From positions 1 through 5,088 of the forward strand of contig CAJTSN010000027.1 of assembly GCA_910578745.1 (NCBI GenBank): 5,088 nucleotides of DNA, written 5' to 3'. The notes beneath the pieces are model-generated. The model had not been told where the DNA came from. It did not search any database and worked only from the letters and a program-made list of their open reading frames with translations. This DNA is from an uncultured Bacilli bacterium. GTDB lineage: Bacteria > Bacillota_I > Bacilli_A > RF39 > UBA660. Made by a program: the position numbers and the translations under genes. Below are positions 1 to 5,088 of the stretch, one piece after another (position 1 is the first letter of the stretch; each line of letters starts with the position of its first letter).

Positions 1-176
1 CCCCTAAATTTGTCAAGATAAAAAGTGGTTATACTAGAATAAATTGTTACAGTTTACGATTGATATAAAAATTTATAAAATTCGAATATTCAATAAATCA
101 CGAATCATAAACTACGACAGAATTGTTTTACAATAAAATGAATGTTGTATAAAATTGTTCCACGCCAAAAAGAAGC

Positions 177-199
177 AAAAAAAATCGCATTTCTGCGAT
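177..199 (-). terminator. Rho-independent terminator-like hairpin, strongest on the minus strand and possibly bidirectional
   Basis: ATCGCA-TTTC-TGCGAT (184..199) forms a perfect 6-bp stem with a 4-nt loop. On the minus strand it is followed by a T run of 7-8 (A run 177..184 on the plus strand). On the plus strand it is followed by GATTTTATT. It lies ~280 nt downstream of the stop at 481. The stem is short, so confidence is moderate. Confidence 0.45.
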
Positions 200-480: not shown

Positions 481-1764
481 CTATTTTTTATCTTCTAAAA
501 TATATACATTTCCTGGATTGATTTGGAAAGCGTCCTCATAAATAATCCAATCCGTAACTTCCCCTATTTTGTAGAAACCTTCATCTCCTTCATGCATATT
601 TTTTACATGATAAGGTTCCTGTAAAAGCTTACAGTGTAATTTTCCTTCCTTTATTTCTAAAAGTTCAAACCAAATGTGTTCTAAATGATCCTCATCCGCT
701 TCCTCTGTCTGCAATCCAATTTTAACAATCACTTGATTTTTCTTATTTTTAAGTGCTTCTTCCACATAAGAAAATCTTTCAATAGCAAGGGATTTCATTC
801 GATCTGTTTCTTCATTACTCAAAAAGAAGATTGGATTTTCACCCCATAAATCATTATACACAGAAACTTTGCTTAAAACTTGTTTTTTCTCATCTTCTTC
901 ACTTTGATAAATAAAAATTAAACTTGTTTTACTATTATGACCTGTTTTACGGTCCTCTAAATTACCTAGCTTCAATTTTTTATATTCATGCAAACCCAAC
1001 GTCCAAGAAATGCAAGTAGCAACGACAGGTTGTCCGTTATTTAATAGACCAATATAAATTCCTTCTTCTGGAAAATGGGTTTCATTCTTTTTATCTAAAA
1101 GATAACTTGCAAAAGTGGCTATCAAATTATAATGATTATTGTAATTTTCTGTATCAGATTCAAGAATTTCTAATTCTGTTAAACCACAACGACATAATCC
1201 ATGCGTATGCAACCAAACCTCCCCATTTTTACCTGATACTGCTTGTACAGTATATAAATCATTCGCACTTGGATATACTTCTGTACGAATTGACATTCGA
1301 ACCCAATTCGCTGGCAATAATTTTTCTGCACTTTCATCCATTACAGCCAATAAATTTGGCATGATCGCATGTATCAGTTTTAATTGGAGATGAAAGGACT
1401 TTTTTGCATTCTCATTAAATTTCATATAGATAGTAAGAGCAATTTTTGTATTTTTTAACTTTTCAATATCTTCTGCTTTAAAAAAATAAGTAGGTAAAAC
1501 ATAATAATCTTCAAAATGAAAATTCGTTGGGAAAAAACCGACCTCAAATTCTTCTGCCTTATAACGTATTTTCATATACCCATCCGCTTGATCACTCATA
1601 TCTCTCTTCTCAAGAATTTCTACTCCAGAAATAGTCTCTACACGGTCAAAAATGCCTTCTAAAGGATTCTCCTCTTCATGTTCTGGAATTGCTAACATGT
1701 AAGATTTTTCCTCCCAATATCCCAAAGGTGCTTCTGTATATGATACTTTCGTTTTTTTAAACAT
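481..1764 (-). CDS. Uncharacterised protein resembling DUF4026 (central WLHTHGLCRCGLTELE block) with a C-terminal DUF2314-like domain
   Basis: 427-aa ORF with a perfect AGGAGG RBS and its own promoter. The C-terminal EHIWFELLEIKEGKLHCKLLQEPYHVKNMHEGDEGFYKIGEVTDWIIY matches my recollection of the DUF2314 pattern (E-h-h-W-h-E ... G-x-L-x-N/Q-x-P ... G-D ... DW). The central GEVWLHTHGLCRCGLTELEI block matches my recollection of DUF4026. I saw no signal peptide, transmembrane segment or known catalytic motif. The family assignment is from memory and was not searched. Confidence 0.55.
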   Translation of the reverse strand: MFKKTKVSYTEAPLGYWEEKSYMLAIPEHEEENPLEGIFDRVETISGVEILEKRDMSDQADGYMKIRYKAEEFEVGFFPTNFHFEDYYVLPTYFFKAEDIEKLKNTKIALTIYMKFNENAKKSFHLQLKLIHAIMPNLLAVMDESAEKLLPANWVRMSIRTEVYPSANDLYTVQAVSGKNGEVWLHTHGLCRCGLTELEILESDTENYNNHYNLIATFASYLLDKKNETHFPEEGIYIGLLNNGQPVVATCISWTLGLHEYKKLKLGNLEDRKTGHNSKTSLIFIYQSEEDEKKQVLSKVSVYNDLWGENPIFFLSNEETDRMKSLAIERFSYVEEALKNKKNQVIVKIGLQTEEADEDHLEHIWFELLEIKEGKLHCKLLQEPYHVKNMHEGDEGFYKIGEVTDWIIYEDAFQINPGNVYILEDKK

Positions 1765-2033: not shown

Positions 2034-2795
2034 TCAATTTAACGATTTAGAATCATAAATAAAATGATAAGGATATCCTCTTTTATCTATATTATCTAAG
2101 TTCAAATTTAGTTGTTTAGCTAATTCAAGTAATTTATCATATTCTTCCATAATAGAAGTATCGTAGTTTTTTACTTCTATTTCTATGAAATATCCCAAAT
2201 TTTGAACATAATCAAGGGCAATTTCATACTTATTAAGATAGAAATATGTTTTCCTTATTTTATTTACAATTGCTATGATTTCTAAATCTAAAACTTTAAA
2301 AATCTTATCTAAATTTTTCTCATCATCTACTTCAACCTCATATTCATCACAATACTTATTATCATACCATTTTTTATAATTCACTATTTTTTTATTTCCC
2401 CTTACTCCAATTCTTAGCCATTCATCAATACTTTCATTATCACTTTTTAAAAATTTTCTATAAGTAGGTTGATAATATTGGTCGACCTGTCTACTTTCAT
2501 TCAAAAATACAGCACACTTTTTCATAAATGATTCTATAGTTTCAAATTCTTCTTTTGAAAGTCTTACCTTTATTTCTGTTTCAATATCACTTTTTTCTAT
2601 ATCCCCGTAAATAAGATAACTTATACTACAAGAAAATAATTCACTTAATTTCATTAGCACCTCTAAACCAGGCTCTGTTCGATTCAACTCCCAACTTGAT
2701 ACCGTTTTATCAGTTACAAAGATTTTATCTGCCAACTCCGTTTGTGTCCACTTCTTCCTTTTCCTTAAATCCGCTATTCGTTCACCTAAATTCAT
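2034..2795 (-). CDS. XRE-family HTH fused to a CYTH domain (CyaB-like class IV adenylate cyclase / triphosphate tunnel metalloenzyme fold)
   Basis: The ORF track gives 2034..2804, but codon 1 there is GTG. I favour the ATG at 2795 (MNLGERIADLRKRKKWTQTELADKIFVTDKTVSSWELNRTEP...), which is a canonical XRE N-terminus preceded by GAGGTG. The C-terminal ~180 aa carry the CYTH charge pattern: ETEIK, the ExExK signature (track aa 75-79, nt 2568..2582, verified); QVDQYY; LRIGVRG; NYKK; EYEVEV; KIRKTY; ALDYVQNLGYFIEIEV (FIEIEV at nt 2172..2189, verified); and a GYPY tail. Confidence 0.8.
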   Translation of the reverse strand: MNLGERIADLRKRKKWTQTELADKIFVTDKTVSSWELNRTEPGLEVLMKLSELFSCSISYLIYGDIEKSDIETEIKVRLSKEEFETIESFMKKCAVFLNESRQVDQYYQPTYRKFLKSDNESIDEWLRIGVRGNKKIVNYKKWYDNKYCDEYEVEVDDEKNLDKIFKVLDLEIIAIVNKIRKTYFYLNKYEIALDYVQNLGYFIEIEVKNYDTSIMEEYDKLLELAKQLNLNLDNIDKRGYPYHFIYDSKSLN

Positions 2796-2801
2796 TTTCC
2801 T

Positions 2802-2807
2802 CACCTC
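2802..2807 (-). promoter_or_regulatory. Shine-Dalgarno site for the HTH-CYTH gene
   Basis: The minus strand reads GAGGTG, followed by a 6-nt spacer and then the ATG at 2795..2793. This RBS lies inside the first codons of the ORF-track model, which starts at GTG 2804. That placement argues for the ATG start. Confidence 0.6.
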
Positions 2808-3025: not shown

Positions 3026-3292
3026 CTATTCTTCCCTTAAAAAAGCATCTAAAGGTTTTTCAAAAAGAATACTGAACTTTATAAGAAGTTTTAAAGAACA
3101 ACTTTTTGTCAAATCGTTAAAAGACTCAATTCTTCTTAAATAGTCATAAGAAATATCTAATCGTTCGGCTACTTCCATGCCCGAAAGTCCACTTTCCCTT
3201 CTAAACTTCTTTATATTCTTATAAATAATGGGCATATAATCCCGATGCAATTGCTCTTTTTTTGTATCCATAAGAAAATTTAAGCCTTCCAT
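3026..3292 (-). CDS. Small XRE-family (HTH_3-like) DNA-binding protein, likely translationally coupled to the HerA-like gene
   Basis: 88-aa ORF. IYKNIKKFRRESGLSGMEVAERLDISYDYLRRIES...LKLLIKFSILFEKPLDAFL fits the Cro/C1/XRE helix-turn-helix pattern. The ATG at 3292..3290 overlaps the HerA stop (3280..3282) by 13 nt. The start is uncertain: an in-frame ATG at 3271..3269 (MDTKK...) is an alternative, and neither has a strong SD. Confidence 0.7.
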   Translation of the reverse strand: MEGLNFLMDTKKEQLHRDYMPIIYKNIKKFRRESGLSGMEVAERLDISYDYLRRIESFNDLTKSCSLKLLIKFSILFEKPLDAFLREE

Positions 3293-5031
3293 CTCGCTTC
3301 TACATCACAGTTACTGCTATGTGGTGGTGGAGCAGGTGGATCCATTTTTATAATAATAGGAATTCGAAAAGCCTTACCAAATCCTACACAAGTACCAGGT
3401 TGTAAACTTTTTTGTTTTTCAATAATTTCTTGATTAATATTGGGAAGCATTTTTGCAATATAATCTAAATCTCTTGGATGATTCATTTTAAAAATTAAAA
3501 AATTAGAACACTGTGAAATAACGGTTTCTGAAATTTCAACTGGTCTTTGCGAAATTAAATTGAAAACCAATCCATATTTTCTTCCCTCTTTCGCAACTCG
3601 ATCAAAAATATTATAACCAAGTAAAAATTTATCATTATCATTTTGAACATAACGATGTGCTTCTTCTAAAAAAATATGAAATGGAATAGAGGCTCTCACT
3701 TTTAAAGATTTCGTAAACGTAAATAACATTTTTGTATAAATTTTCGTAATCACTTTTGCAATACGATCCTCAATATCCTCCAAATTAAAGTTAATAATCT
3801 GTGCTTTTTTCCCGGGTGCATAAGTAACAAGAGAAGCTATATAATTTTCTAAAGTGATATATTGTGGGTAATGAAAATACTTTGCATTTTCGCCAATCAC
3901 AATCGAATGGAGTCTTACCTTTAAAGCAATTGCTTCACTATATGTTTTCTGGTTTCTTAAAAGACCTTCTGATATTAAAGTAAAACTTAAGGCTTTTTCC
4001 AAATCTTCTAAAGTAAAATAATGACTTTCTTTTGCTTCATATTTATCTAAGCTATCATCAATAAAATCAGAAATATATTGTGTAACTAAAATACTTTCTG
4101 TAAAATTTCCTTCTTTATCGATAATAAAACAATCTCTAAATTTACGAACATAGCCAATTCCTTGTACAGGAGCCTCTAAATTAAACGCTTCTGTCGAACA
4201 AGTGGCAAGGATAGAAAAAATATCATTTCTCTTTGCTGTTGCACTTTGATTTGTATATAAAATTGTCATAATTGCCTTTGCAATTAAATGATTTTTATAA
4301 TTAACAGACATTTCATCTGATTCAGAGAAAATTCGTACCAATTTAAGCATTTCTTCTATAATCGGTAATTGCGAATGATCGGTTGCATCTAGTAATAAAG
4401 CCATATCATCGACATCTAGAAGCCATAAAGGAATAGAAAGCAAATTCCCTTCTGTATCATTTACATTGGTCGTATAGTATTTAAAATAAAAATTGGGATT
4501 GATTTTATTAATATCTCGAAAAGCTGTATGGTATTCACCATATGCATCAAAAATAAAAAAATTAGAACGAATTGGAACTACATTTTTGTTTGTAAACACA
4601 TTCTGCATCAACCTTGCAAGTCCCCAAGATTTACCACTTCCTGTATTTCCAAAAATAGCAGAGTGATTCGAAAACATATCATTTACATCAATATAAAGGG
4701 GAAAATCATTATAAAGAGGCGATCTTCCTATTAACATACTACTTTGCGTTTCTCTTCCGACAATCAGTCCAAATTCCTCTTCTGTAATGATACGAACATT
4801 TGCAGATAAACTTGGTTTACGAATGACACCACCTAAAAAACGGTTATTTTGAATTTCTCCTAAAAAACGAACTTTAATGAGTTCCATATCCATATCTTCA
4901 ACTTCACCAATAATTTTCTTTTTGTTGTCCTCAAAGACAATATGCATATTCATCATATCTTGCGCTAAAACATTACCTTCTATTTTGATATGTGCTACAT
5001 TATCAGATATATATATAATTTTACCTATCAT
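3280..5031 (-). CDS. HerA-like / DUF87-family P-loop ATPase (FtsK-HerA superfamily) with an N-terminal barrel-like domain
   Basis: 583-aa ORF with a good RBS. Walker A GNTGSGKS is at aa 128-135 (nt 4627..4650, verified by back-translation). Walker B FHIFLEEAH is at aa 451-459 (nt 3655..3681, verified). NLISQRP...VISQCSNFLIFKMNHPRDLDYI at aa 491-525 matches the arginine-finger/sensor block typical of HerA/DUF87. The N-terminus MIGKIIYISDNVAHIKIEGNV... resembles a HAS-barrel. About 315 aa separate Walker A from Walker B, implying a large insertion. I saw no transmembrane segment. Confidence 0.85.
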   Translation of the reverse strand: MIGKIIYISDNVAHIKIEGNVLAQDMMNMHIVFEDNKKKIIGEVEDMDMELIKVRFLGEIQNNRFLGGVIRKPSLSANVRIITEEEFGLIVGRETQSSMLIGRSPLYNDFPLYIDVNDMFSNHSAIFGNTGSGKSWGLARLMQNVFTNKNVVPIRSNFFIFDAYGEYHTAFRDINKINPNFYFKYYTTNVNDTEGNLLSIPLWLLDVDDMALLLDATDHSQLPIIEEMLKLVRIFSESDEMSVNYKNHLIAKAIMTILYTNQSATAKRNDIFSILATCSTEAFNLEAPVQGIGYVRKFRDCFIIDKEGNFTESILVTQYISDFIDDSLDKYEAKESHYFTLEDLEKALSFTLISEGLLRNQKTYSEAIALKVRLHSIVIGENAKYFHYPQYITLENYIASLVTYAPGKKAQIINFNLEDIEDRIAKVITKIYTKMLFTFTKSLKVRASIPFHIFLEEAHRYVQNDNDKFLLGYNIFDRVAKEGRKYGLVFNLISQRPVEISETVISQCSNFLIFKMNHPRDLDYIAKMLPNINQEIIEKQKSLQPGTCVGFGKAFRIPIIIKMDPPAPPPHSSNCDVEARWKA

Positions 5032-5039
5032 TCATGTAT

Positions 5040-5046
5040 CTCCTTC
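5040..5046 (-). promoter_or_regulatory. Shine-Dalgarno site for the HerA-like gene
   Basis: The minus strand reads GAAGGAG, followed by an 8-nt spacer (ATACATGA) and then the ATG at 5031..5029. Confidence 0.7.
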
Positions 5047-5088
5047 TTATAAAATTTCTTCTATTTTTTCTTTTAATTCTTTCTCTTG
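5047..5088 (-). CDS. 3' end of an upstream gene truncated by the window edge. It is the candidate partner or effector of the HerA-like ATPase. Product unknown.
   Basis: The reverse complement of 5088..5047 reads CAA GAG AAA GAA TTA AAA GAA AAA ATA GAA GAA ATT TTA TAA, which translates to ...QEKELKEKIEEIL*. The stop at 5047..5049 directly abuts the HerA RBS, leaving a 15-nt gap to the HerA ATG. A second reading frame is also open over these 42 nt, so the frame assignment is tentative. Confidence 0.3.
   Translation of the reverse strand, partial: QEKELKEKIEEIL

What the first reader, a model, noticed from the sequence alone, without database searches (positions are those of the whole stretch)
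3280..5088. HerA-like ATPase whose probable effector partner lies just outside the window
Seen in sequence: the Walker A, Walker B and SQRP blocks are intact, there is an N-terminal barrel-like segment, and the Walker A to Walker B spacer is unusually long (~315 aa). An upstream ORF ends 15 nt before the HerA ATG, with the HerA SD abutting its stop codon, so the two are almost certainly co-transcribed. Established knowledge: in SIR2-HerA and DUF4297-HerA systems the effector gene immediately precedes herA, and in HerA-NurA pairs the nuclease is adjacent. Only 13 C-terminal residues of the partner (QEKELKEKIEEIL) are visible, and they identify nothing. The partner's identity decides whether this is a known system or a new HerA pairing.
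Basis: partly seen in the sequence, partly recalled or inferred. Interest (0 to 1): 0.65.

Follow-up and report, generated by a model that had tools for sequence, protein, structure and literature searches.

The report
Partnerless, lineage-wide HerA ATPase after ylxM
The gene is a real HerA-type ring ATPase, but the gene in front of it is the housekeeping gene ylxM and not a toxin or nuclease, and this HerA is a strongly conserved, partnerless core gene of a large group of uncultured gut Bacilli, not a two-gene anti-phage system.

Summary
A 583-aa HerA/DUF87 ATPase lies on the minus strand (3280..5031) with intact Walker A, Walker B and SQRP motifs. An upstream ORF ends 15 nt before its ATG.

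The window is 100% identical to part of a 101-kb scaffold. There the upstream ORF is the 94-aa SRP accessory gene ylxM (UPF0122), preceded by ftsY. No SIR2, DUF4297 or NurA gene lies within 10 kb.

The order ftsY-ylxM-herA recurs in 62 of 68 related species sampled through ftsY alone. The gene after HerA varies (92 families in 171 loci), and ffh often follows further on. HerA has diverged in step with RNase J and FtsY (r = 0.94 and 0.79). Its dN/dS of 0.02-0.05 is lower than theirs.

More distant members of the same clade sit beside dnaA, recA, rmuC, a parA-like gene, or near rarA and a xerD-like gene. The nearest partnered relatives (29-37% identity) are SIR2-linked HerAs scattered across phyla. 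All 23 of those examined had SIR2 directly upstream. The partnerless clade lacks three insertions in the N-terminal beta-barrel, the domain where SIR2 docks.

Best reading: a partnerless housekeeping DNA motor. Its exact role is untested.

The parts
3280..5031 (-). herA-like gene: 583-aa HerA/DUF87-family ATPase. Predicted domains are an N-terminal beta-barrel (aa ~1-97), a split RecA-like core (aa ~98-205 and ~403-565) and a helical-bundle insertion (aa ~206-402).
   Evidence: ORF. Pfam DUF87 77.9 bits. PADLOC HerA PDLC04102 4e-106. AF2 model pLDDT 87.7. Foldseek top hit 8yhx, a HerA, TM 0.73/0.76.
4627..4650 (-). Walker A / P-loop GNTGSGKS (aa 128-135)
   Evidence: G128, G131, G133 and K134 are at least 98% conserved over 199 distinct clade members.
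3655..3678 (-). Walker B HIFLEEAH (aa 452-459), with acidic residues E456 and E457
   Evidence: E456, E457, H459, R460 and Y461 are at least 98% conserved.
3541..3552 (-). SQRP motif (aa 494-497). The EGRKYG block just upstream (aa 482-487, 3571..3588) holds the invariant R484.
   Evidence: Q495, R496, P497 and R484 are at least 98% conserved.
5047..5088 (-). 3' end of ylxM (UPF0122, SRP accessory protein): 13 codons plus the stop TAA at 5047..5049
   Evidence: The window is 100% identical to L003 9944-15031. The full 94-aa gene ends QEKELKEKIEEIL*. For the 98%-identical L001 copy (L001:9701-9985): Pfam UPF0122 73.1 bits, Sigma70_r4 29.1 bits.
5032..5046 (-). 15-nt ylxM-herA spacer with the Shine-Dalgarno sequence AAGGAG (5040..5045), 8 nt before the ATG
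   Evidence: No terminator-like site lies here. The median ylxM-herA gap is 15 nt over 135 loci.
3026..3292 (-). Small HTH ORF (88 aa) whose ATG overlaps the herA stop by 13 nt. It is a variable accessory gene, not a conserved partner.
   Evidence: Pfam HTH_3/HTH_31 hits are below their cut-offs. PADLOC HTH_VI 5e-9. Found in 8 of 87 loci, which are 7 same-species contigs plus one other genome (L008). In L008 the orthologue starts 40 nt after herA.
2034..2804 (-). XRE-type HTH fused to a CYTH domain (class IV adenylate cyclase-like). It belongs to the variable block downstream of herA.
   Evidence: Pfam HTH_3 52.2 bits and CYTH 64.6 bits. NCBIfam cyaB TIGR00318 68.1 bits against a cut-off of 57.95. 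Found in 8 of 87 loci only.
481..1764 (-). DUF4026_N + DUF4026_C + DUF2314 protein (427 aa), the last gene before the only terminator-like site in the window
   Evidence: Pfam. Found in 7 of 87 loci.
176..199 (-). Terminator-like hairpin ATCGCAGAAATGCGAT followed by a T run. It is the only such site in the window.

Best explanation
The 583-aa protein is a HerA-family ring ATPase of the FtsK-HerA superfamily, and no effector gene is encoded beside it.

Genomic setting. The gene is the third in an ftsY-ylxM-herA transcription unit. Ancestrally this unit sat as ftsY-ylxM-herA-[variable genes]-ffh. It is inherited vertically as a core gene in a large radiation of low-GC uncultured gut Bacilli, deposited under names such as 'Tenericutes', 'Mollicutes' and 'Bacilli'.

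Proposed mechanism. These steps are inferred from family membership, not shown here:
- The invariant Walker A lysine K134 and Walker B acidic residues E456/E457 drive ATP hydrolysis. By analogy with other HerAs, the invariant R484 and the SQRP motif (Q495-P497) probably serve as arginine finger and sensor.
- ATP hydrolysis pulls double-stranded DNA through the central channel.

Proposed role. The protein most likely serves chromosome maintenance (repair, recombination or segregation). It would act on its own or with a nuclease encoded elsewhere in the genome. It is not an anti-phage abortive-infection trigger.

Relation to defence HerAs. It shares a branch with the SIR2-associated defence HerAs. 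It has a trimmed N-terminal barrel, and that barrel is the surface on which SIR2 and NurA dock in the solved complexes.
For: Identity of the protein:
- DUF87 77.9 bits; PADLOC HerA 4e-106.
- The AF2 model and Foldseek hits point to HerA of SIR2-HerA, DUF4297-HerA and HerA-NurA complexes.
- Ninety-four columns are at least 98% conserved across 199 distinct clade members, including every catalytic motif.

No effector partner:
- The true extension (L003, 100% identical) shows ftsY-ylxM-herA. No gene with a SIR2, NurA or DUF4297 Pfam hit is called within 10 kb.
- YlxM and FtsY are confirmed by Pfam.
- Over 202 unique loci, the upstream gene is ylxM in 135 of 189, on the same strand, with a median gap of 15 nt. 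The downstream gene falls into 92 families over 171 loci, the largest being ffh with 26.
- SIR2-like ORFs were found near none of about 250 loci of the clade.

Core gene, inherited vertically:
- Sampling through ftsY alone, 62 of 68 species carry herA right after ylxM.
- HerA identity tracks RNase J (r = 0.94, n = 113) and FtsY (r = 0.79, n = 174). In the four comparisons with enough divergence, dN/dS is 0.017-0.048, against 0.036-0.078 for FtsY and 0.038-0.072 for RNase J.
- No close relative occurs in phage records, viral contigs or plasmids.

DNA-metabolism flavour. In other sublineages the same partnerless HerA lies:
- between rpmH and dnaA;
- directly after rmuC;
- after a parA-like ATPase;
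- between rny and recA;
- in a gatCAB...thiF-gpsA-rarA-xerD-like cluster.

Contrast with defence HerAs:
- SIR2-type relatives are scattered over Bacteroidota, Proteobacteria, Actinomycetota and Firmicutes. All 23 examined have SIR2 immediately upstream.
- They match PDLC04102 end to end (576-805 bits). The partnerless clade matches only from profile position about 87-113 onward (245-363 bits).
- The partnerless clade lacks three barrel insertions. SIR2 and NurA dock on that barrel (PMC11472057).
Against: - No function was tested. The DNA-maintenance role rests on family membership and on gene neighbourhoods that are themselves core regions, so part of that association may be chance.
- A partner (nuclease, SIR2 or other) encoded elsewhere in these genomes cannot be excluded, because only about 10 kb on each side could be read.
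- In most species the gene sits in an SRP operon, not a DNA-metabolism operon.
- The closest characterised relatives are all immune proteins, and one paper reports intrinsic nickase activity for a defence HerA alone (PMC13434337). A stand-alone defence role is therefore conceivable.
- The neighbour-joining tree has no bootstrap support.
- Most genomes are MAGs, so 'absent' cases may be assembly gaps.
Confidence: 0.6

Rival explanations
1. Defence function retained. The HerA would still act in anti-phage immunity, either alone (for example as a DNA-nicking or ATP-consuming sensor) or with an effector encoded elsewhere in the genome.
For: The best profile and structure matches are all to defence HerAs. 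The clade is sister to SIR2-linked HerAs in the tree. Intrinsic nickase activity has been reported for one defence HerA alone (PMC13434337).
Against: The gene is near-universal and syntenic in the lineage: 62 of 68 species in ftsY-anchored sampling. Its dN/dS is lower than that of FtsY and RNase J, and it has co-diverged with host genes. It is absent from plasmid, phage and viral collections at more than 31% identity. There are no neighbouring defence genes apart from a strain-variable reverse transcriptase about 9 kb away. The barrel segments present in SIR2-linked relatives are deleted.
Confidence: 0.12
2. SRP-linked or membrane-linked function. HerA would work with FtsY, YlxM and Ffh, for example by powering export or import of a macromolecule at the membrane.
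For: The order ftsY-ylxM-herA-(ffh) is conserved, with a median 15-nt gap to ylxM in 135 of 189 loci. There is a weak NCBIfam hit to the archaeal DNA-translocating ATPase CedD (51 bits against a cut-off of 600).
Against: Sublineages at 49-64% identity, and more distant members, keep the same partnerless HerA away from any SRP gene, next to recA, dnaA, rmuC, gatCAB or a parA-like gene. The AF2 secondary-structure read-out shows no helix longer than about 20 residues, but transmembrane segments were not specifically tested. YlxM is known to bind Ffh and the SRP RNA (PMC8546722), which explains its own position without HerA.
Confidence: 0.08
3. New local pairing. In this species HerA would work with the downstream genes (88-aa HTH protein, HTH-CYTH protein, DUF4026/DUF2314 protein) as a novel multi-gene system.
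For: The 88-aa ORF overlaps the herA stop by 13 nt. There is no terminator-like site until after the DUF4026 gene. The CYTH domain passes the NCBIfam class IV adenylate cyclase cut-off. There are PADLOC HTH hits.
Against: These genes occur in only 7-8 of 87 loci (the same species and one close relative). Genomes with 89-95% identical HerA have other genes there. In L008 the small ORF starts 40 nt after herA, so the overlap is not conserved. HerA itself is conserved far beyond the reach of these genes.
Confidence: 0.06
4. One reading: a two-gene HerA system whose effector (SIR2, DUF4297 or NurA) is the upstream ORF just outside the window.
For: Tight 15-nt spacing and a Shine-Dalgarno site abutting the upstream stop codon. 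In genuine SIR2-HerA loci the effector does lie immediately upstream.
Against: The upstream ORF is the 94-aa YlxM. It has no PADLOC hit.
Confidence: 0.01
5. A conjugative or secretion ATPase (VirB4/TraC/TrwB type) or an FtsK/SpoIIIE-type translocase that has been mislabelled as HerA.
For: There are marginal P-loop-region hits to FtsK_SpoIIIE (22.7 bits), TrwB_AAD_bind (18.5 bits) and AAA_10 (13.9 bits).
Against: All of these are below their Pfam cut-offs and cover only about 50 residues around the P-loop. DUF87 and the HerA profiles score far higher. The top 50 Foldseek hits are all HerA chains. There are no conjugation genes nearby.
Confidence: 0.01

Closest known systems
HerA of SIR2-HerA anti-phage systems (E. 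coli Nezha 8j4u/8sub; Paenibacillus 8wiv/8wld; 8yhx; PADLOC model PDLC04102)
   Same: Closest in sequence and fold. The best PADLOC model is PDLC04102 (354 bits). Identity to SIR2-linked proteins P0133 and P0135 and to the Listeria plasmid HerA is 29-37%. Foldseek TM is 0.73/0.76 to 8yhx. The domain order is the same (beta-barrel, then a RecA core split by a helical bundle) and the catalytic motifs are identical.
   Different: There is no SIR2 gene (0 of about 250 loci, against 23 of 23 in the SIR2-type group). The barrel lacks three insertions, and the first ~90-110 profile positions are unmatched. The protein has no equivalent of the Paenibacillus C-terminal arm domain (aa 576-696); it ends at residue 583. 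It is a core, syntenic, vertically inherited gene under strong purifying selection, not a patchy, mobile island gene.
HerA of DUF4297-HerA systems (9c1m, 8xau, 8ziq)
   Same: The fold, and the best PDB sequence hit (9c1m, E = 3.2e-39).
   Different: No gene with a DUF4297 Pfam hit is called within 10 kb. The match to the PADLOC models originally built for that system is weaker (PDLC02185 and PDLC02188, 156-158 bits).
HerA-NurA end-resection complex (archaea; Deinococcus-Thermus)
   Same: A housekeeping HerA motor that acts on chromosomal DNA, which is the functional class proposed here. The fold is the same (4d2i sequence hit at 5.5e-25; 9x1m in Foldseek).
   Different: No gene with a NurA Pfam hit is adjacent or within 10 kb. 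The sequence relationship is more distant (NCBIfam HerA_Thermprot 99.9 bits against a cut-off of 800). The lineage is bacterial, low-GC and mesophilic.
FtsK/SpoIIIE DNA translocases
   Same: Same superfamily of ring-shaped P-loop DNA pumps, with a housekeeping chromosome function (established knowledge).
   Different: The Pfam FtsK_SpoIIIE hit is below its cut-off and limited to the P-loop. The protein has no N-terminal membrane domain and no gamma domain. Whether these genomes also have FtsK could not be tested.
ftsY / ylxM-ffh SRP gene cluster of Firmicutes
   Same: The genomic setting: ftsY, ylxM and (in many species) ffh flank the gene.
   Different: By general knowledge (not tested here), ylxM is normally followed directly by ffh. 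Here a 1.75-kb herA gene is lodged between them.

Membership tests
HerA / DUF87 family (FtsK-HerA superfamily) | Match to the HerA central-domain profile above the curated threshold | tested here: met
   Pfam PF01935 DUF87 77.9 bits against a cut-off of 23.2. Fourteen PADLOC HerA models match, the best at 4e-106.
HerA / DUF87 family (FtsK-HerA superfamily) | Intact Walker A, Walker B and downstream arginine/SQRP catalytic motifs | tested here: met
   GNTGSGKS at aa 128-135, LEEAH at aa 455-459, R484 and SQRP at aa 494-497. All are at least 98% conserved in 199 sequences.
HerA / DUF87 family (FtsK-HerA superfamily) | N-terminal HAS-type beta-barrel followed by a RecA-like core with a helical insertion, and overall fold similarity to solved HerA structures | tested here: met
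   AF2 model, pLDDT 87.7, with strands at aa 3-115 and helices at aa 207-402. Foldseek TM 0.73/0.76 to 8yhx, and all top 50 hits are HerA chains. This is a prediction, not an experiment.
HerA / DUF87 family (FtsK-HerA superfamily) | Hexameric ring with DNA-stimulated ATPase or translocase activity | not testable with these tools
   Needs biochemistry or a multimer prediction. Only monomer prediction was available.
SIR2-HerA defence system | SIR2-family gene immediately adjacent to herA, usually overlapping it | tested here: not met
   The upstream gene is ylxM. tblastn with three SIR2 proteins found no hit in about 250 loci of the clade, against 23 of 23 in SIR2-type loci.
SIR2-HerA defence system | HerA matches the SIR2-linked subfamily profile end to end, including the N-terminal barrel that binds SIR2 | tested here: not met
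   PDLC04102 matches aa 49-581 to profile positions 87-637 at 354 bits. SIR2-linked proteins match positions 1-7 to 639-649 at 576-805 bits. Three barrel insertions are missing.
SIR2-HerA defence system | Patchy, island-associated or mobile distribution typical of defence genes | tested here: not met
   Sixty-two of 68 related species carry the gene at the same locus. dN/dS is 0.017-0.048 and identity correlates with RNase J at r = 0.94. None is found on phages or viral contigs, and plasmid matches are at most 31% identical.
NCBIfam HerA_antiphage / HerA_antiphage_2 equivalogs | Score above the curated equivalog cut-off | tested here: not met
   171.2 bits against a cut-off of 850, and 146.8 bits against a cut-off of 800.
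DUF4297-HerA defence system | Adjacent DUF4297 / Cap4-like nuclease gene | tested here: not met
   No such Pfam family appears among the called genes within 10 kb in L001-L007. The neighbour families in the census are housekeeping or unrelated.
HerA-NurA repair complex | Adjacent nurA gene (often with mre11-rad50 in archaea) | tested here: not met
   No gene with a NurA Pfam hit lies within 10 kb. No conserved neighbour other than ylxM was found. A nurA elsewhere in the genome could not be checked.
VirB4 / TraC / TrwB / FtsK-type ATPases | Better score to these profiles than to HerA/DUF87, and conjugation or division gene context | tested here: not met
   FtsK_SpoIIIE 22.7 bits (cut-off 24), TrwB_AAD_bind 18.5 (cut-off 20.5), AAA_10 13.9 (cut-off 27.5), VirB4 TIGR00929 16.2 (cut-off 643). 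No conjugation genes are nearby.
UPF0122 / YlxM (the upstream ORF) | Match to PF04297 above threshold, and position next to SRP genes | tested here: met
   73.1 bits against a cut-off of 22.7, with ftsY (SRP54 domain, 257 bits) immediately upstream. ffh follows herA in at least 31 loci.

The most novel reading that the evidence does not exclude
A HerA motor of the SIR2-HerA branch has become an indispensable, partnerless chromosome-maintenance ATPase in a whole radiation of reduced-genome gut Bacilli. It has been fixed inside the SRP operon and trimmed of its effector-docking barrel loops. It may have taken over a job that other bacteria give to FtsK-type or end-resection machines. The reverse is also possible: this clade could preserve the ancestral housekeeping form from which the SIR2-HerA immune ATPases were recruited. 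Either way, it would be a documented direct evolutionary link between a core DNA motor and an abortive-infection system.
Probability: 0.3. Interest if true: 0.7.

Novelty: new variant of a known kind. Interest (0 to 1): 0.48.

Why it matters
HerA ATPases are currently understood as one half of a pair, working with NurA in repair and with SIR2 or DUF4297 in phage defence. The partner always docks on the N-terminal barrel. Here the nearest relatives of the SIR2-linked HerAs form a clade with these properties:
- no adjacent partner;
- a pared-down barrel;
- core-gene population genetics, with dN/dS below that of FtsY and RNase J;
- fixed positions in housekeeping operons across hundreds of uncultured gut species.

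If the role is in chromosome maintenance, the clade offers a natural, effector-free version of a defence motor in which to study what the HerA ring does by itself. It would also be a concrete case of traffic between immunity and housekeeping.

There is a practical point as well. HMM-based defence finders will flag this gene as 'HerA' (PADLOC E = 4e-106), so it should not be counted as a defence system in gut MAG surveys. No paper in the searched library mentions HerA together with ylxM, or an orphan or solo HerA.

Tried and rejected
- Effector upstream: rejected once the flanks were retrieved.
- Conserved downstream partner: rejected. The ~300-aa ORFs that abut herA in some species are L-lactate-dehydrogenase-like proteins by sequence (not profile-tested), or membrane proteins. 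The others are GtrA-like, zinc-ribbon or unknown proteins. There are 92 families in 171 loci.
- Fusion proteins: the long representatives P0121 (829 aa), P0122 (940 aa) and P0128 (943 aa) carry no Pfam domain in the extra part. They look like gene-calling read-through and were not pursued.
- FtsK replacement idea: I searched six-frame translations of about 250 held loci for FtsK Walker A and B signatures and found none. Large ORFs near herA turned out to be Lon, a class A PBP, and an EssC-like protein with FtsK/SpoIIIE domains. Whole genomes could not be read, so presence or absence of ftsK in the lineage remains untested.
- P0133 alone as a genome-scan query found nothing. The alignment A4 worked.
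- P0127's own lineage (herA beside dnaA) has no close relative among the species-representative genomes, with a best match of 44%. The conservation of that context could therefore not be measured.
- Prophage or plasmid origin: no support.
- Diversity-generating retroelement around the upstream reverse transcriptase: no template/variable repeat pair was found in L004 1-5200.
- Order-level taxonomy (RF39 or RFN20) could not be tested. It is inferred only from record titles and PMC7301438.


Full report
**1. The observation**

The ORF lies on the minus strand at 3280..5031 and encodes 583 aa.
- Walker A (GNTGSGKS) is at aa 128-135, Walker B (HIFLEEAH) at aa 452-459 and SQRP at aa 494-497.
- K134 and E456 are 321 residues apart.
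- The upstream partial ORF reads QEKELKEKIEEIL*. Its TAA stop is followed by 15 nt that hold AAGGAG, and then by the herA ATG.

The profile hits leave no doubt about the family:
- Pfam DUF87 scores 77.9 bits against a cut-off of 23.2.
- FtsK_SpoIIIE (22.7 bits), TrwB_AAD_bind (18.5) and AAA_10 (13.9) are all below their cut-offs and confined to the P-loop region.
- PADLOC HerA PDLC04102 scores E = 4e-106.
- NCBIfam VirB4 scores 16 bits against a cut-off of 643.

An AlphaFold2 model built on a 33-sequence alignment has pLDDT 87.7 and pTM 0.86. It shows an N-terminal beta domain, a RecA-like core and a helical insertion of about 200 aa (aa ~206-402) between the two Walker motifs. Its 50 best Foldseek matches in the PDB are all HerA chains. 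The top hit is 8yhx (TM 0.73/0.76), followed by HerA-DUF4297, SIR2-HerA, Nezha and, at rank 49, HerA-NurA of Thermococcus kodakarensis.

The long Walker A to B spacing is this helical bundle. SIR2-linked relatives and Paenibacillus HerA have it too (PMC11472057), so it is not a peculiarity of this protein.

**2. The flanks**

The exact HerA protein is on record on many metagenome contigs. The whole 5088-base window is 100% identical to L003 9944-15031, which is part of a 101-kb scaffold, and to L006.

In that scaffold the upstream ORF is a 94-aa protein that ends in exactly the 13 residues visible in the window. The 98%-identical L001 copy scores 73.1 bits on Pfam UPF0122/YlxM (cut-off 22.7) and also matches Sigma70_r4. 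The gene before it is ftsY (SRP54 domain, 257 bits). YlxM is an SRP accessory protein of Gram-positive bacteria that binds Ffh and the SRP RNA (PMC8546722).

No gene with a SIR2, DUF4297 or NurA Pfam hit is called within 10 kb on either side. No terminator-like site separates ftsY, ylxM, herA and the three downstream genes. The only such site in the window is at 184-199, after the DUF4026 gene.

The HerA call and the likely co-transcription are right.

**3. Distribution**

A scan of one genome per species found 277 relatives. The best 80 are 59-97% identical over the full length. Nearly all come from uncultured low-GC 'Bacilli', 'Tenericutes' or 'Mollicutes' gut MAGs, including Mycoplasma sp. 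CAG:877. The window itself is 29% G+C.

- tblastn with the proteins of L001 showed ftsY-ylxM-herA in 82 of 87 loci. The three genes downstream in the window appear only in the 7-8 closest loci.
- To avoid sampling through HerA, I repeated the scan with FtsY as the query. Of 68 species loci with at least 2.8 kb after ftsY, 67 have ylxM and 62 have herA directly after it. At least one of the six exceptions has herA on another contig of the same MAG (L059 and L209).
- A census of 202 unique loci gave ylxM as the upstream gene in 135 of 189 (same strand, median gap 15 nt). The downstream gene fell into 92 different families over 171 loci, the largest being ffh with 26.
- ffh lies 50-3000 nt downstream in at least 31 loci. 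The ancestral order is therefore ftsY-ylxM-herA-[variable]-ffh.

**4. Mode of evolution**

Against the same-species and sister-species contigs, NG86 estimates give dN/dS of 0.017-0.048 for herA in the four comparisons with enough divergence. The values are 0.036-0.078 for ftsY and 0.038-0.072 for the RNase J gene.

Across all loci, HerA identity correlates with RNase J identity (r = 0.94, n = 113) and with FtsY identity (r = 0.79, n = 174).

Over 199 distinct sequences, 94 columns are at least 98% conserved. The barrel and the helical insertion are nearly as conserved as the ATPase core (0.64 and 0.69, against 0.71-0.79).

No close relative exists in phage records or viral contigs, and plasmid matches are at most 31% identical. 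This is the profile of a vertically inherited core gene, not of a defence gene.

**5. Wider relatives**

An exhaustive representative search gave a graded series of full-length relatives. Their contexts are as follows.

Partnerless proteins of 576-593 aa at 36-47% identity:
- P0127 lies between rpmH-rnpA-yidC-jag and dnaA-dnaN-recF-gyrB.
- P0126 lies directly after rmuC in all three contigs shown.
- P0132 lies after a parA-like ATPase.

Sublineages at 49-64% identity:
- One carries herA in gatCAB-x-herA-thiF-gpsA-rarA-xerD-like. Coprobacillus sp. CAG:605 belongs here.
- One carries it between rny and recA.
- One carries it among sortase and surface-protein genes, on the opposite strand.

The next relatives, P0133 (37%) and P0135 (33%), have a SIR2_2 gene abutting herA inside defence islands. 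So does the best annotated plasmid hit, Listeria pPIR00540.

A neighbour-joining tree puts all the partnerless proteins in one clade, sister to the SIR2-linked group. It has no support values.

As a control, I scanned genomes with an alignment of the SIR2-type proteins. Full-length relatives turned up in Flavobacteriaceae, Capnocytophaga, Sphingomonas, Agrobacterium, Afipia, Microbacterium, Porphyromonas and others. All 23 had a SIR2-like ORF ending at the herA start. The Bacilli-MAG loci returned by the same scan, and about 250 loci fetched earlier, had none.

**6. What differs in the protein**

- SIR2-linked HerAs match PADLOC PDLC04102 from profile position 1-7 to 639-649, at 576-805 bits.
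- Members of the partnerless clade match only from position about 87-113 onward, at 245-363 bits.
- The alignment shows three insertions in the N-terminal barrel of the SIR2-linked proteins that the partnerless clade lacks.
- In the solved complexes, SIR2 is held between two HerA beta-barrels, and NurA sits on the same N-terminal face (PMC11472057).
- The partnerless clade therefore lacks parts of the domain that carries the docking surface. This is consistent with having no such partner, but does not prove it.

**7. Explanation**

Shown:
- HerA-family membership and intact catalytic motifs.
- ylxM as the upstream gene, and no adjacent effector.
- Lineage-wide synteny, strong purifying selection and co-divergence with host genes.
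- SIR2 linkage in the nearest outgroup only.

Inferred:
- The protein forms a hexameric, ATP-driven DNA motor, by homology.
- Its role is in chromosome maintenance. This rests on the family's known substrates and on the repeated placement next to dnaA, recA, rmuC, rarA, a xerD-like gene and a parA-like gene in lineages where it is not in the SRP operon.
- Its position after ylxM reflects an old insertion into a constitutively expressed operon, not an SRP function.

I put about 0.6 on this package. Nearly all the uncertainty lies in the functional role. The rivals (retained defence role, SRP-linked role, a local pairing with the downstream HTH/CYTH/DUF4026 genes) are listed with their evidence in the rivals section.

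**8. Novelty**

The family is known. The variant is not described in the searched literature: a partnerless, core, barrel-trimmed sister of the SIR2-type HerAs, fixed in housekeeping operons of a large uncultured lineage. It is also a foreseeable false positive for defence-system annotation.

Noticed in passing
window 3026..3292 (-): An 88-aa HTH-like ORF starts 13 nt before the herA stop codon. It occurs only in this species and one close relative. In that relative (L008) it is 82 aa and starts 40 nt after herA, so the real start here may be the second Met (residue 8).
   Followed up: partly
window 2034..2804 (-): An XRE-type HTH is fused to a CYTH domain. The CYTH domain passes the NCBIfam class IV adenylate cyclase (cyaB) cut-off (68.1 bits against 57.95). 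This is a DNA-binding regulator joined to a possible nucleotide cyclase or triphosphatase. Its function is unknown.
   Followed up: no
window 481..1764 (-); variable block L001 11740-17105: In this species the HTH88, HTH-CYTH, DUF4026/DUF2314, 109-aa and 469-aa genes fill the space between herA and gtrA. In genomes with 89-95% identical HerA (L009, L010) they are replaced by other genes. The region downstream of herA is therefore a variable spot.
   Followed up: partly
L001 93-4980 (about 5-10 kb upstream of herA, outside the window): A 340-aa reverse transcriptase (PADLOC RT 4e-37, with weaker DRT UG17/UG4 hits) lies next to 536-645-aa and 133-aa ORFs of unknown function and a DUF2201 protein. 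The RT is present in some contigs (L001, L004, L005, L007) and absent in others (L002, L003). No template/variable repeat pair was found.
   Followed up: partly
L114 and L115 (ylxM about 1.8-1.9 kb upstream of the matched herA): Two species carry a tandem duplication, ylxM-herA-herA', with the second copy at 55-57% identity to the window protein.
   Followed up: no
L163 2488-7095: In one sublineage, a 1535-aa EssC-like protein with FtsK/SpoIIIE domains (type VII secretion type) lies three ORFs upstream of the partnerless herA.
   Followed up: no
record titles: Many contigs that carry this Bacilli-type ftsY-ylxM-herA locus are deposited as 'uncultured Muribaculaceae', 'Roseburia sp.', 'Ignavibacteriales', 'Sphaerochaetaceae' or 'Clostridia'. 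These are probably mislabelled or contaminated MAG bins.
   Followed up: no
P0121 (829 aa), P0122 (940 aa), P0128 (943 aa), P0124 (753 aa): These cluster representatives of the same HerA have extensions of 165-360 aa with no Pfam domain. They may be read-through or alternative-code gene calls, not real fusions.
   Followed up: partly
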